From NCBI GenBank assembly GCA_903825325.1, contig CAIKAI010000044.1:1-46064 (forward strand): a stretch of DNA of 46,064 nucleotides, written 5' to 3'. This DNA is from Candidatus Shapirobacteria bacterium. Lineage in GTDB: Bacteria; Patescibacteriota; Microgenomatia; UBA12405. The translations under genes were made by a program, and so were the position numbers. A model generated the notes under the pieces. It worked only from the letters and a program-made list of their open reading frames with translations, had not been told where the DNA came from and made no database searches. This document shows positions 1 to 3,000 of the stretch, piece by piece. The number at the start of each line of letters is the position of its first letter. Position 1 is the first letter of the stretch.

Positions 1-3000
1 AACCACACCCACTAATTCCCCCAAAAAGCTACTTACTCCCTTAGTATTTTGAACACCGTTACTAGTTTTCACTATGGCCGATTTTGGTTGTGCGGCATTA
101 GTAAAATCAAGAGAAATATCAGCAGCTTTTGGCAACACCACCTTTGTCTTTTCAATTTTCTTTAGCTCCAAATCCAAACTTCTAAGATTATATGGCCGAT
201 ATTTATCACTTTCACTATATTTAACTCCCAATGCATCTGCCCGGGCGATTATTTGATCTCTAGCTGCCACAAAATCATTCCAAGTTGGATCATAACTCAA
301 ATTAAAATCTTCTTTAAAATCTTTCAGCCGACTCTTTTCTAAATAATTTATATTATCTTTCAAATCCGCCAAGGCTTGTTCATTTATAGTCGTCCCGGCA
401 TTTCCCCCTATCGATTCCAACTGCTGTTTTAACGAGTGATATACCGCCTCTACAGTTGCTAAATAATAGTTTTTACCTTGATTTTGATTCCTAATTAACT
501 CAAAATTAATTCCTAAATTGGGATAGGTATTTTCGACTCTTTTTGTAGCATAATCCAAGGCCTCATCGTAGTTTTTTTGAGACATGCTCGTATCAAAAGC
601 CTTTCTTTCAGCCTCTAAATTTTGATAAGCTGTTTTTGTATCCTCAGTTACTTCTGCTGTTCGACCTGTGGCATTGTCAATCATCACCACCGCCGCCTTT
701 CGGTACTCGCTCGTCGAAATATTCGAGGCATCAACGATACCCACTAAGTACGATGAGTCAATCATAGTAGCAATCATTACCTCGCCTTTGGAGCCCTTTC
801 CATAATTCTCAATTTGCGAAATTGGGATATCCATTACCAAGAGTTGTCCTTGATTGGGAATAACTGAACTATCCAGATTTGTTCCACCCGATAAATACGG
901 TACTACATCCGGCCCGGCCGTATAATAAACAAAAACATTCGTTCTATTGACTAAACTTTTTCTAATCGAAAATCCCCTCAGAGCATCCTTTTCCGCCTCC
1001 TTCATAAATTCCTGATAATAGCCGCGAGCTCTTTCGTCTTGTATATATTTTTGACTAGCATCATACAACGCCACCATATTACTAAATGTTGGCTCTTTCG
1101 CCATCGCCTCCACAAATGGTTTCATTTCCTTGACGACCACCATTTTGCCATCACGGATATCTCTCATCGCATAGGCAGTTTGGTTGAGAAGCACGTCCAC
1201 CGTCGTTTTATCAATTACCCCAATTGCTCGATATACTCGGATAGTCGGCTCATTAGCAATTTTTGGCTGTTTGATTGCCAACAATTGCCCCACTTTTGCA
1301 TTTGGCATGGGCACCGAAATTTTTTCAACATTAAATCCTCTGTCTTTTAATCCAACTTCCAACTCATCGAAAGTAGTCATCGGTGTCGCCGGTGCAGGCA
1401 GTGCTGCTGTCGGTTGTACATTTGGAACTACTTCTTCATTCGATTCATTACTTACATTTTGATTTTGGGTGGAATTTGTATACAAAAAATCATAACCCGT
1501 CATTTTTGTTTTCAAATATTTATCATGCCACTGTTTTGCCAAATCTTGCCCCACGTAAAACAAATGCCAGTCCTCTTGTGGTAAACCATCCACCGGCGCC
1601 GAATATGTTTTGATAAAACCATATTTATATGCATTTTGTTCCACCCACATTCCCGCTTTAGTTTTACCAAATCCCGAACCAATTCCAATTGCCTGTTTGT
1701 TTTCCGGAGTACTTACATCCACTGCATACCCCGTGTTATGTTCCGATTCTTTTGGTTTGGTAGTTGCCTCTGGCGCTTGTGAGTGAGCAATTTGTTGCTC
1801 TTCCTTGGTTCTATAACCTGACATTAAATACATTGTTGCGCCATCGGCTCTTGCCGCATTAAACATTGCCGCCAGATCGTTAACCACTTCCCGAGCAATC
1901 ATTTCTTTTGGCGCCAACACATAATTATTCAAATAAGTAGCCGCTTCCACCAAATCTGGTTCAATATTATTCTTCATTTCCGCCGTCGTAACTGGTGATT
2001 TATGCAAATCACGAAAGGCAAACGGATTTACTGACATCGGTTTCAATTGATACTTATTTGGTTGTTGCCCTGGTTCCAACAAGCTTACCAGCTGTTCCAT
2101 CGCCAATTTTGCCGACCCAACGATCCATTGGCTTTTTCCTGAAATAACATCATCATAAAATTTATCCAACATAAACCAATTTTGTCGAAAACAATATTTT
2201 TCAAATAATGCCTCTTTGTTCCATATATTCTTCAGAACCGGACCTATAATGTCAGAAGTTGGATCGCCATATGGATTTTCTGTCGTTAAAGCATAAAATG
2301 CCGTGGTTAAAATAGCTCGAATATCTTCACTTTGGGTCGACACCCCGGTAACTAAATATTGAGGTGACATATTGAAAGCTGGCGTGCCAAAAAAATTGTT
2401 TGTATCAATTGTCGCCACTCTACCACCAAAGTCAATTAATTGAGCACCGTATTCTCTGGAAATAATTATATTTTTAGGCTTAATATCAGCATGGTTTTGA
2501 TATTTTTCATCAATCTCAATATTATGGATCTTATCCACTGTCTCGGCGATTTGTGCCATCCACAAGATTACTTTTGACTCATCAACGGTTTCGCCAAGAT
2601 CTTTGGAATCATTAATATATTTAGCCAAAGTTGGCCCATAAACATATTCCATCACTCCGTAGCCTGCATAGATTTGTCCATTAGAATTTACTAAAGGCAC
2701 AATATCCAACGCTACCGGAACATCCAATTTTCGATACACTGCCAATTTCTTAATCTCTGTTTGAATTCCAATCCATGGATTATCACTATAGACATTTCTT
2801 TTGATTATTACCATTTTCATCAAATGTGTATCCCACCCCGCATAGACCTCACCCTCACCTCCTGACGCCATCAACCGGCTGCTCTTTATATACCTATTCC
2901 CAACTAATTCTGATCCCGAAATCGGTTGGTTTAAAACCTGTGGATTCTGCCAAACAAGTGTTCGATATTCTTTTTCCAACTTTTCTATCTCTGCTTCCAC

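What the first reader, a model, noticed from the sequence alone, without database searches (positions are those of the whole stretch)
1500..1900. A VanY-like peptidoglycan peptidase domain is fused directly downstream of a Ser/Thr kinase in the giant protein
The LAS/M15 signature is complete: SGYR..EEQ, SEHNTGYAVD and EDWHLFYVG. These are the zinc ligands His/Asp/His in canonical order. A D-Ala-D-Ala carboxypeptidase or endopeptidase domain suggests the protein acts on a cell wall, either its own or that of a host or prey cell. Fusion to kinases and an ATPase is unusual.
Basis: partly seen in the sequence, partly recalled or inferred. Interest (0 to 1): 0.7.

Follow-up and report, generated by a model that had tools for sequence, protein, structure and literature searches.

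The report
Cell-wall peptidase inside giant CPR protein
A complete, apparently active VanY/LdcB-type zinc peptidase that trims bacterial cell-wall peptides sits just after two protein kinases near the end of a protein of more than 10,700 amino acids from a tiny groundwater bacterium (Candidatus Shapirobacteria), an arrangement I found in no other protein or paper searched.

Summary
On the minus strand, window 1549-1902 encodes a VanY/M15B domain. Pfam PF02557 gives E 1.8e-22 and 79.9 bits against a cutoff of 25. All catalytic residues are present: R10134, H10158, D10165, E10213 and H10216. The AlphaFold2 model (pLDDT 86) superposes on VanY-B and LdcB with TM 0.7-0.78.

The domain lies in one open frame of at least 10,737 aa (window 32211 to 1, C-terminus missing). 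The organism is a Candidatus Shapirobacteria (CPR/Patescibacteria).

The domain follows a duplicated ~900-aa module. Each copy ends in a Hanks-type kinase with intact catalytic motifs. After the VanY domain comes a domain of a family (named in Patescibacteria where named) with no recognisable fold.

The closest homologue is a 4,419-aa Shapirobacteria "protein kinase". It is collinear but has no VanY. A sister strain carries a very different allele at the same locus. VanY is therefore a lineage-specific addition to a hypervariable giant gene.

No kinase-VanY fusion appeared in any search, including the best 150 hits from 1.84 billion representative proteins. The "ATPase" rests only on conserved motifs about 7,800 aa upstream.

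Most likely the domain removes the terminal D-Ala from peptidoglycan stem peptides at the cell surface or host interface. Topology and target are unresolved. This is a new architecture for a known enzyme family.

The parts
1..32181 (-). Giant gene, at least 10,727 codons. The frame is open from window 32211. The likely start is GTG at 32181, 8 nt after the SIMPL gene's stop codon. The 3' end lies beyond the window's left edge.
   Evidence: Six-frame scan: one stop-free stretch of 10,737 codons. Start candidates. A collinear 4,419-aa homologue is annotated in a Shapirobacteria genome.
32098..32175 (-). N-terminal transmembrane anchor (aa 13-38), preceded by KKK. Predicted N-in, C-out.
   Evidence: Kyte-Doolittle 1.95 and Wimley-White -7.6. 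Conserved in homologue P0281.
28282..31626 (-). Cysteine-paired repeat region (aa 196-1310) with 14 Cys pairs spaced about 60-100 aa apart. It includes an A/G-rich hydrophobic pair at aa 1054-1100 (window 28912-29052).
   Evidence: Cys positions. Hydrophobic segments. The same pattern occurs in the sister-strain allele and in P0281.
23542..25404 (-). Conserved block (aa ~2270-2890) with P-loop-like motifs: SAQTGYGKS, VIADEGS, IILDATP, QGTGRDR. This is a candidate divergent NTPase.
   Evidence: Motifs are conserved at 38-43% identity with P0281. No HMM or PDB support.
4873..7476 (-). Module A (aa 8246-9113): a ~580-aa head with a CX6C pair, then kinase K1.
   Evidence: Internal duplication, 48-66% identity to module B in the three longest blocks, 41% over the kinase C-lobe.
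4843..5661 (-). Hanks-type Ser/Thr kinase K1 (aa 8851-9123).
   Evidence: Pfam Pkinase E 3.7e-12. Gly loop, VIIK Lys, HGDxKPxN and DFG are all present.
2077..4779 (-). Module B (aa 9145-10045), the paralogue of module A.
2026..2877 (-). Hanks-type Ser/Thr kinase K2 (aa 9779-10062), immediately upstream of VanY.
   Evidence: Pfam Pkinase E 3e-14. HADxKPxN and DFG are present and invariant with K1 and P0137.
1462..1974 (-). VanY/LdcB-type M15B zinc peptidase domain (aa 10080-10250). The Pfam envelope is aa 10104-10221, window 1549-1902.
   Evidence: Pfam 79.9 bits. PDB 4ox3 E 3.8e-21. AF2 pLDDT 86; Foldseek 5hnm, 4ox3 and 4jid with TM 0.7-0.78.
1810..1812 (-). R10134 (SGYR), the carboxylate-binding arginine.
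   Evidence: Invariant in A1 and A2. Equivalent to SpLdcB Arg120.
1717..1740 (-). H10158 to D10165 (SEHNTGYAVD): zinc ligands 1 and 2, in an H-x6-D arrangement.
   Evidence: Invariant columns in the 52-sequence alignment. They align to the SEHQTGLAMD motif of BsLdcB, which contains the ligands His185 and Asp192 named in PMC4087270.
1564..1575 (-). E10213-D-W-H10216 (ExxH): the catalytic glutamate and zinc ligand 3.
   Evidence: Invariant columns. They align to the EPWH motif of BsLdcB, which contains His244; the glutamate corresponds to SpLdcB Glu204.
250..1461 (-). Third C-terminal domain, 'D3' (aa 10251-10654). It belongs to a family of ~400-aa stand-alone proteins; the one named member is from a Patescibacteria group bacterium. 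It has no known fold or function.
   Evidence: Exhaustive HMMER hits at E down to 1e-21. Alignment A3 has 12 invariant residues. AF2 pLDDT 83, with no PDB or BFVD fold match and no Pfam or PHROG hit.

Best explanation
Window 1462-1974 (minus strand) encodes a catalytically competent zinc peptidase of the VanY/LdcB (MEROPS M15B, LAS) family.

It is one unit in a C-terminal array of enzyme domains: kinase, kinase, VanY, unknown domain D3. The array belongs to a protein of at least 10,737 aa. That protein is N-terminally membrane-anchored and varies strongly between strains. The organism is a Candidatus Shapirobacteria (CPR/Patescibacteria) from a metagenome.

The chemistry is shown by homology. 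A Zn2+ ion held by H10158, D10165 and H10216 activates water. With E10213 and R10134, the enzyme removes the C-terminal D-alanine from a peptidoglycan stem peptide (tetra- or pentapeptide).

The location is inferred. The N-terminal signal anchor places the polypeptide outside the producer's cytoplasm. There the peptidase would trim stem peptides at the cell surface. The most likely target is the wall of the cell the epibiont attaches to. This would loosen or block cross-linking locally while the co-linear kinases and D3 act as accompanying effectors.

The domain is a recent, lineage-specific addition, because the closest homologue of the giant protein lacks it.
For: SHOWN:
- Pfam VanY 79.9 bits against a cutoff of 25, covering nearly the full profile.
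- The best solved relative is B. subtilis LdcB, E 3.8e-21. SGYR, SEHxTGxAxD and ExWHxxYVG align exactly.
- All five catalytic residues are invariant in a 52-sequence alignment. They match the definition in PMC4087270.
- AF2 pLDDT 86, pTM 0.83. Foldseek top hits are VanY-B 5hnm and LdcB 4ox3, 4jid and 4mph, with probability 1.0 and TM 0.70-0.78.
- The organism is set by MurB, 63-66% identical to Shapirobacteria MAGs.

FOR AN EXTRACYTOPLASMIC LOCATION:
- A strong N-terminal TM preceded by KKK.
- Cysteines occur almost only in pairs: 17 pairs and one lone Cys. Pairs occur on both sides of the hydrophobic region and at the head of each kinase module.
- Cys content is 0.07% over aa 1321-10737, against 0.8% in the cytoplasmic neighbours.
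- The same pattern holds in homologue P0281.
- The five nearest VanY relatives first recovered all have N-terminal hydrophobic anchors, like exported LdcB/VanY. Cytoplasmic VanXY and VanX score much lower (29 bits; E 2.6e-3).

FOR A CONFLICT OR HOST-INTERFACE ROLE:
- Flanking genes are 87-95% identical in nucleotides to sister-strain contigs. Identity decays towards the giant gene. The syntenic allele there (5,945 aa) shares only 26-36% aa identity over the longer aligned N-terminal blocks.
- Homologue P0281 (4,419 aa) is collinear but ends ~220 aa after its kinase. No VanY or D3 lies within 9 kb downstream.
- Another giant protein, P0147 (4,096 aa), ends in Amidase_2 plus VanY after PBP-type domains.
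- The best PHROG match is a VanY-like segment embedded in phage tape-measure proteins.
Against: - Both kinases have intact ATP-dependent catalytic motifs. A conserved P-loop-like block exists upstream. ATP-using domains normally work in a cytoplasm.
- Stand-alone D3 homologues have no signal peptide.
- Extra hydrophobic segments at aa 1054-1300 could give an odd number of membrane passes. That would put the remaining 9,400 aa inside the cell.
- Low Cys partly reflects a general depletion of rare residues; W and H are also low.
- No host is known. No enzyme assay, expression data or 3' end of the gene is available.
- LD- versus DD-carboxypeptidase specificity cannot be read from the sequence. 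No NCBIfam equivalog cutoff is reached.
Confidence: 0.45

Rival explanations
1. Cytoplasmic scaffold. Only the first ~1,100-1,300 aa (the Cys-paired repeats) are outside the cell. An odd number of membrane passes puts the rest in the producer's cytoplasm. There the kinases and the putative NTPase have ATP. The VanY domain would act like VanXY or VanY on soluble or lipid-linked precursors, converting UDP-MurNAc-pentapeptide to tetrapeptide. This would tune the producer's own wall synthesis in response to signals from the external part.
For: - Two kinases with intact catalytic residues.
- A conserved P-loop-like block.
- D3 relatives lack signal peptides.
- In this window, aa 1077-1105 is a strong TM candidate by the Wimley-White scale (-8.3), while its partner at aa 1054-1076 does not reach the scan threshold.
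- P0281 has five strong hydrophobic segments before its kinase.
- A 2026 preprint describes Omnitrophota giant proteins as largely membrane-anchored with cytoplasmic enzyme arrays.
- Cytoplasmic members of the fold exist (VanXY).
Against: - The hydrophobic pair at aa 1054-1100 is separated by a tight GTGGAATP turn. That is typical of a hairpin, which gives an even number of passes.
- Cys pairs continue on both sides of the hydrophobic region and reappear at each module head.
- Cys is depleted 11-fold relative to cytoplasmic neighbours.
- The nearest VanY relatives are membrane-anchored exported enzymes. VanXY-type enzymes are much more distant.
- The strong Wimley-White segment is not conserved in the two homologues.
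Confidence: 0.25
2. Self-wall maintenance. The protein is surface-exposed, but the VanY domain works on the producer's own peptidoglycan. It could act as a tethered LdcB-like trimming enzyme. It could also open the mesh locally so that the giant fibre can pass and be anchored.
For: - The best solved relative is the housekeeping LD-carboxypeptidase LdcB of B. subtilis.
- The organism makes peptidoglycan; murB is adjacent.
- Local wall remodelling around large envelope-spanning machines is common (general knowledge).
Against: - A housekeeping function should be conserved. The closest Shapirobacteria homologue lacks the domain, and nothing similar lies nearby.
- The domain sits about 10,000 residues from the membrane anchor, among effector-like domains. 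This is far from the producer's wall if the protein is extended (inference).
- The LdcB equivalog threshold is not reached: 30.9 bits against 275.
Confidence: 0.2
3. The domain is a non-catalytic wall-binding module or a decaying remnant.
For: - There is a 9-18 residue deletion between SGYR and SEH relative to homologues.
- Only one sequence of this allele is available, so selection cannot be measured.
Against: - All five catalytic and zinc-binding residues are intact. Of the 28 invariant or nearly invariant columns in the 52-sequence alignment, the 10 invariant ones are all retained by the window sequence.
- The fold model is confident.
- The reading frame is open for 32 kb.
Confidence: 0.05
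4. Assembly chimera. The VanY segment was joined to the giant gene by metagenome mis-assembly.
For: - The window comes from a metagenome.
- The exact allele was not found in any other contig.
Against: - One continuous stop-free frame runs through kinase, VanY and D3.
- GC is uniform at 0.35-0.42 with no break at the junctions.
- The only named D3 relative is from a Patescibacteria group bacterium, and one of the closest VanY relatives is from Candidatus Dojkabacteria (CPR).
- The upstream modules are collinear with a Shapirobacteria homologue.
Confidence: 0.03

Closest known systems
LdcB LD-carboxypeptidase (B. subtilis YodJ 4ox3; B. anthracis 4jid/4mph; S. pneumoniae DacB 4ox5)
   Same: Best sequence and fold match: 79 bits, TM 0.75-0.78. 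It shares the Zn ligands H-x6-D...H, the ExxH glutamate, the SGYR arginine and the open active-site cleft type.
   Different: LdcB is a ~190-270-aa lipoprotein or membrane-anchored stand-alone enzyme. Here the domain is embedded about 10,100 residues into a giant protein. It has a 9-18 residue deletion after SGYR. It scores far below the NCBIfam LdcB cutoff, 30.9 bits against 275.
VanY DD-carboxypeptidases of vancomycin-resistance clusters (VanY-B 5hnm/5zhf; NCBIfam NF000472/NF000473)
   Same: Same Pfam family. It is the top Foldseek hit (E 6e-12). The motifs are the same.
   Different: No van operon context. The scores of 54 and 47.5 bits are far below the cutoffs of 425 and 400. Identity is only 27%.
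Candidatus Shapirobacteria 4,419-aa 'protein kinase' MFA7301742.1 (P0281/P0137)
   Same: It is a collinear homologue of the giant protein. It shares the N-terminal TM, the paired-Cys repeats, the A/G-rich hydrophobic region, the P-loop-like block (38-43% identity), the module head with CX6C and the Hanks kinase.
   Different: It is less than half the length and has one kinase module instead of two. It has no VanY and no D3, either in the protein or within 9 kb downstream.
P0147, an unnamed 4,096-aa protein carrying Beta-lactamase2, Transgly, Transpeptidase, Amidase_2 and VanY domains
   Same: It is a giant protein with a VanY domain near its C-terminus. The two VanY domains are 37% identical.
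   Different: All its other domains are peptidoglycan enzymes. It has no kinases. It shows no homology to this protein outside VanY. Its organism is unknown.
Phage tape-measure proteins with embedded lytic domains (phrog_16823) and VanY-type endolysins (Ply500 2vo9)
   Same: A VanY-like peptidase embedded in a very long extended protein thought to cross a target wall. It is the best PHROG hit, E 2.5e-7.
   Different: Only the peptidase segment matches. There is no phage context. The neighbours are chromosomal: RuvC, MurB and an ABC transporter.
Giant proteins of Omnitrophota ('archaeovorins'; West-Roberts et al. 2023 preprint; 2026 complete-genome preprint)
   Same: Very long genes in ultra-small, host-dependent bacteria, argued to take part in attacking a host's cell wall.
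   Different: Different phylum and no shared domains. Those papers mention neither VanY or M15 domains nor Hanks kinases, and they do not treat Patescibacteria giant proteins.

Membership tests
Peptidase M15B / VanY (Pfam PF02557, LAS superfamily) | HMM match above the curated threshold over most of the profile | tested here: met
   79.9 bits against a cutoff of 25, E 1.8e-22, profile positions 3-131 of 132.
Peptidase M15B / VanY (Pfam PF02557, LAS superfamily) | Zinc-binding motif H-X(3-6)-D ... H | tested here: met
   H10158-x6-D10165 and H10216. Their motifs align exactly to the BsLdcB motifs that hold His185, Asp192 and His244 (definition in PMC4087270). These columns are invariant in 52 sequences.
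Peptidase M15B / VanY (Pfam PF02557, LAS superfamily) | Catalytic Glu three residues before the last His (ExxH), and a carboxylate-binding Arg (SGYR) | tested here: met
   E10213 and R10134 are present and invariant.
Peptidase M15B / VanY (Pfam PF02557, LAS superfamily) | LAS fold | tested here: met
   AF2 pLDDT 86 and pTM 0.83. Foldseek hits to VanY-B, LdcB and VanXY have probability 1.0 and TM 0.70-0.78. Atom-level geometry of the metal site was not inspected.
Peptidase M15B / VanY (Pfam PF02557, LAS superfamily) | Zn-dependent removal of the C-terminal D-Ala from stem peptides | not testable with these tools
   This needs an enzyme assay.
LdcB LD-carboxypeptidase (NCBIfam NF041194) | Score above the family cutoff | tested here: not met
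   30.9 bits against a cutoff of 275, although BsLdcB is the best PDB sequence hit.
Resistance-type VanY / VanXY (NF000472, NF000473, NF000380) | Score above the family cutoff, and a van operon context | tested here: not met
   54.4 against 425, 47.5 against 400 and 41.9 against 250 bits. No van genes were detected in the window.
Hanks-type Ser/Thr protein kinase (Pfam PF00069), for the two upstream domains | HMM above threshold, plus Gly loop, catalytic Lys, HxDxKxxN and DFG | tested here: met
   53.5 and 46.6 bits against a cutoff of 31.7. The motifs are present and invariant across K1, K2 and P0137. Both are non-RD kinases (HGD, HAD), and APE is replaced by SPQ.
   SAQTGYGKS, VIADEGS and QGTGRDR are conserved with P0281. 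Pfam gives only AAA_22 at E 0.13 and nSTAND_NTPase5 at E 0.12, and PDB gives nothing.
Polymorphic toxin / multi-effector systems | C-terminal enzymatic domains that vary between related alleles | tested here: inconclusive
   P0281 lacks VanY and D3. The sister-strain allele is only 26-36% identical over the longer aligned N-terminal blocks. Its C-terminus could not be fetched.
Polymorphic toxin / multi-effector systems | Cognate immunity gene immediately downstream | not testable with these tools
   The 3' end of the gene lies outside the window. No contig carrying this allele was found.
Omnitrophota giant proteins (archaeovorins) | Shared domain content and lineage | tested here: not met
   The organism is Shapirobacteria. 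Pfam detected only Pkinase (twice) and VanY, none of the domain types listed in those papers.

The most novel reading that the evidence does not exclude
The giant protein is a contact-dependent, multi-effector device of a CPR epibiont. It is anchored in the symbiont by its N-terminus and spans the gap to the host. It presents or delivers a strain-variable C-terminal cassette of two kinases, a VanY-type peptidase and the fold-less D3 domain. VanY would be the module that breaches or poisons the host wall by removing the D-Ala needed for cross-linking. The kinases and D3 would act in the host cytoplasm. This would be a new class of giant polymorphic effector in Patescibacteria.
Probability: 0.2. 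Interest if true: 0.85.

Novelty: new variant of a known kind. Interest (0 to 1): 0.55.

Why it matters
How CPR/Patescibacteria attach to hosts and extract resources from them is largely unknown.

A single gene taking about 3% of a ~1-Mb genome must matter to the cell. A related Shapirobacteria MAG has a single 949-kb contig, which gives the genome scale.

This gene differs radically between near-identical strains. In this lineage it has picked up a wall-trimming peptidase next to two kinases. That makes it a concrete, testable candidate for the host-interface machinery.

The peptidase is the one domain whose chemistry is predictable. It is therefore the easiest experimental entry point: recombinant domain, muropeptide assay, host-range clues from stem-peptide specificity.

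The work also shows that giant proteins with wall-active domains are not confined to Omnitrophota. It exposes a widespread domain family (D3), named in Patescibacteria where named, with a confident model but no known fold.

Tried and rejected
1. D3 as an ADP-ribosyltransferase. The invariant VRVYRG, PYISAS and GExxIK motifs in D3 looked like an R-S-E triad. The profile-versus-PDB search, Pfam, PHROGs and two Foldseek searches of a confident model gave nothing significant. The best hit was CNFy at E 0.43. The idea is rejected as unsupported.

2. A detectable ATPase family. Pfam at E up to 10 and a PDB profile search of aa 2230-2950 found no significant match. Only motifs remain.

3. Finding the same allele or its 3' end elsewhere. 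I tried a word-indexed protein search, GTDB genomes, two JGI metagenome scans and an exact look-up of the neighbouring ABC ATPase. These returned only sister strains with a different allele and the 949-kb Shapirobacteria contig. The end of the gene and any downstream immunity gene remain unseen.

4. Synteny in GTDB Shapirobacteria. None of the 15 murB loci has an open frame of 1,200 aa or more within 10 kb.

5. Topology from hydropathy. The Kyte-Doolittle and Wimley-White scans disagree, and the candidate internal TM segments are not conserved between homologues. The question is unresolved.

6. A first self-BLAST of the whole protein returned nothing because of HSP culling. Comparing 300-aa chunks revealed the duplication.

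7. Literature. There is no mention of VanY or M15 in the giant-gene papers, nor of giant proteins or kinases in the Patescibacteria perspective article I checked. The sample prefix GROS21 was not found in any relevant paper.
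Full report
**1. The observation**

The window holds one stop-free frame on the minus strand, from position 32211 to position 1. It is 10,737 codons long and runs off the left edge, so the C-terminus is missing.

- SGYR at aa 10131 (window 1821 downwards)
- EEQ at aa 10137
- SEHNTGYAVD at aa 10156
- EDWHLFYVG at aa 10213

Pfam gives VanY (PF02557) at aa 10104-10221, which is window 1549-1902. E is 1.8e-22 and the score is 79.9 bits against a gathering score of 25. The match covers profile positions 3-131 of 132.

A Hanks-type kinase (Pkinase, E 3e-14) lies at aa 9779-9984. A second lies at aa 8851-9083.

Its coordinates are right, but they refer to the minus strand.

**2. 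The domain itself**

A phmmer search of PDB puts B. subtilis LdcB/YodJ (4ox3) first, at E 3.8e-21. The three motifs align exactly. Next come B. anthracis LdcB and VanY-B at about 50 bits. VanXY is much weaker at 29 bits.

The LdcB structure paper defines the family as follows (PMC4087270):
- zinc ligands in an H-X(3-6)-D...H arrangement (BsLdcB His185, Asp192, His244)
- a catalytic Glu in ExxH
- an Arg that binds the carboxylate

Here the equivalent residues are H10158, D10165, H10216, E10213 and R10134. All five are invariant columns in a 52-sequence alignment.

AlphaFold2 on that alignment gives pLDDT 86 and pTM 0.83. Foldseek against PDB returns VanY-B 5hnm (E 6e-12), LdcB 4ox3, 4jid and 4mph (TM 0.75-0.78) and VanXY. 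Phage endolysins and VanX come much lower.

No NCBIfam equivalog threshold is reached: vanY 54 against 425, LdcB 31 against 275, VanXY 42 against 250. The bond specificity, LD versus DD, therefore cannot be assigned.

Relative to homologues there is a 9-18-residue deletion between SGYR and SEH.

**3. The organism and the locus**

The adjacent murB is 63-66% identical to Candidatus Shapirobacteria MAGs, which belong to the CPR/Patescibacteria and several of which carry groundwater sample names.

The neighbouring ABC ATPase is identical in protein sequence in several ENA metagenome contigs labelled 'GROS21-1'. Nucleotide identity to those contigs falls steadily towards the giant gene:

| Region | Nucleotide identity |
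|---|---|
| ABC operon | 95% |
| murB | 89% |
| ruvC | 87% |
| metallophosphoesterase | 78% |
| SIMPL | 73% |
| giant gene | none detected |

At the same position those contigs carry a gene called at 5,945 aa. The part I could fetch is only 26-36% identical in protein over its longer aligned blocks. The giant gene is therefore a hypervariable locus in an otherwise conserved neighbourhood.

**4. Anatomy of the giant protein**

- *N-terminus.* KKK is followed by a strong transmembrane helix at aa 13-38.
- *Cysteines.* They occur almost only in pairs. Fourteen pairs lie between aa 196 and 1310. CX6C pairs lie at aa 7126, 8257 and 9156. There is one lone Cys.
- *Cys content.* Residues 1321-10737 hold 0.07% Cys, against 0.8% in the cytoplasmic neighbours.
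- *Hydrophobic pair.* An A/G-rich hydrophobic pair at aa 1054-1100 is conserved in type in the sister allele and in P0281.
- *P-loop-like block.* A block at aa ~2270-2890 carries SAQTGYGKS, VIADEGS, IILDATP and QGTGRDR. All are conserved in P0281. No HMM or PDB match supports an NTPase. I rate it as unconfirmed.
- *Duplicated modules.* Residues 8246-9113 and 9145-10045 are a duplicated ~900-aa module, 48-66% identical in its three longest blocks and 41% over the kinase C-lobe. Each copy ends in a kinase.
- *Kinases.* Both keep the Gly loop, the catalytic Lys, HxDxKPxN and DFG.
- *VanY.* It follows the second module only.
- *D3.* After VanY comes a third domain at aa 10251-10654. It matches ~400-aa stand-alone proteins; the one that carries a taxonomic name is from a Patescibacteria group bacterium. 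Its model is confident (pLDDT 83). It has no fold neighbour in PDB or BFVD and no Pfam or PHROG family.

**5. Is the fusion found elsewhere?**

- The word-indexed search of 5.8 billion proteins found only separate kinases and separate VanY proteins.
- A profile search found 664 VanY relatives. The best 120 are all 159-485 aa, and none carries Pkinase.
- An exhaustive HMMER search of 1.84 billion representatives with aa 9750-10737 found no protein combining the parts among its best 150 hits. The ten longer VanY hits I scanned (501-819 aa) have no kinase.

Two giant proteins did appear:
- *P0137/P0281* (4,404 and 4,419 aa) is annotated 'protein kinase [Candidatus Shapirobacteria bacterium]', MFA7301742.1, on a 949-kb contig. 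It is collinear with this protein from the N-terminus to the kinase. It ends ~220 aa later. It has no VanY or D3, either in the protein or within 9 kb downstream.
- *P0147* (4,096 aa) combines PBP-type Transgly and Transpeptidase, Amidase_2 and a C-terminal VanY. It is otherwise unrelated.

VanY, together with D3 and the second kinase module, is therefore a lineage-specific accretion.

**6. How it most likely works**

*Shown by homology.* This is a zinc carboxypeptidase of the VanY/LdcB type. Such enzymes remove the terminal D-Ala from peptidoglycan stem peptides.

*Inferred.* The N-terminal signal anchor follows the positive-inside rule. The paired cysteines run the length of the protein, and the Cys depletion is extreme. 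The nearest VanY relatives have an exported, membrane-anchored character. Together these favour an extracytoplasmic location.

The hypervariability of the locus and the strain-specific C-terminal cassette favour a role at the interface with another cell. The best PHROG hit is a VanY-like segment embedded in phage tape-measure proteins. That is a functional analogy: a lytic domain carried by a very long protein that crosses a wall.

*Main counter-evidence.* Three kinds of domain usually work in a cytoplasm: the two kinases, the possible NTPase, and D3, whose relatives lack signal peptides. Hydropathy cannot exclude an odd number of membrane passes near aa 1054-1300.

*Confidence by reading.*

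| Reading | Confidence |
|---|---|
| Surface or host-interface action | 0.45 |
| Cytoplasmic scaffold | 0.25 |
| Self-wall maintenance | 0.20 |
| Pseudoenzyme | 0.05 |
| Assembly chimera | 0.03 |

Against a chimera, GC is uniform at 0.35-0.42 across the junctions.

**7. Comparison with what is known, and novelty**

The domain is a regular member of Pfam VanY/M15B. It is not a member of the LdcB or resistance-VanY equivalogs.

The architecture is a giant CPR protein with two Hanks kinases, VanY and an unknown domain. I found no paper that describes it. The giant-gene preprints on Omnitrophota and the survey of huge proteins mention neither VanY nor Patescibacteria giant proteins, and only the Omnitrophota preprints mention kinases, of other types. 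The Lipocone paper notes VanY-like domains as C-terminal toxin domains in other systems.

I rate it a new variant of a known kind. Interest is moderate to high for CPR biology. The enzyme chemistry itself is ordinary.

Noticed in passing
window 250-1461 (minus), giant aa 10251-10654: The domain after VanY ('D3') belongs to a family of ~400-aa stand-alone proteins without signal peptides; the one named member is from a Patescibacteria group bacterium. It has 12 invariant residues, including VRVYRG, YAxR, PYxS and a single Glu. The AF2 model is confident (pLDDT 83). There is no significant fold match in PDB or BFVD and no Pfam or PHROG family. The motifs recall R-S-E ADP-ribosyltransferases, but no test supported that.
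   Followed up: partly
window 23542-25404 (minus), giant aa ~2270-2890: This is the block of the giant protein best conserved with homologue P0281 (32-43% identity across its four aligned segments). It carries SAQTGYGKS, VIADEGS, IILDATP and QGTGRDR, which resemble SF2/P-loop motifs I, II, III and VI. No HMM or PDB sequence match was found.
   Followed up: partly
window 2077-7476 (minus); partial third copy at 10405-10854: A ~900-aa module (a head with a CX6C pair, then a kinase) is tandemly duplicated, at 48-66% identity in its three longest blocks. A third copy of the module head alone lies at aa 7120-7269.
   Followed up: yes
window 28282-31626 (minus), giant aa 196-1310: The N-terminal region is built of ~60-100-aa repeats, each with one cysteine pair (for example GCKSGWYAGPYGGCFQVGTG). 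The same pattern occurs in the sister-strain allele and in P0281. Almost all cysteines of the protein are paired.
   Followed up: partly
window 38321-46063 (minus), runs off the right end: A second very long gene (at least 2,581 aa) has fn3 and purple-acid-phosphatase-N-like domains near its C-terminus. Its stop overlaps the start of a MacB-type ABC transporter: the ATPase at 37635-38321 and the FtsX/MacB permease at 35692-37638. This looks like one operon. Parts of this gene also differ strongly from the sister strain (81-95% nucleotide identity in patches).
   Followed up: partly
window 33620-33623 versus L001 12738-13299: Sister-strain contigs carry a BrnT/CopG toxin-antitoxin pair between the metallophosphoesterase gene and ruvC. 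In the window those two genes overlap directly and the pair is absent.
   Followed up: no
window 32294-41329 versus L001-L004: Nucleotide identity to the sister strain falls stepwise towards the giant gene: 95% for the ABC operon, 89% murB, 87% ruvC, 78% metallophosphoesterase, 73% SIMPL, and undetectable for the giant gene. This suggests a recombination or diversification hotspot.
   Followed up: partly
P0147 (protein; Logan contig of 16,647 bp): This 4,096-aa protein strings together Beta-lactamase2, Transglycosylase, Transpeptidase, Amidase_2 and VanY. It is a giant made only of peptidoglycan enzymes, from an unknown organism.
   Followed up: no
window 26441-26926 and 30880-31389 (plus strand): Two ORFs of 161 and 169 aa lie antisense inside the giant gene. 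They have no Pfam match and are probably spurious.
   Followed up: partly
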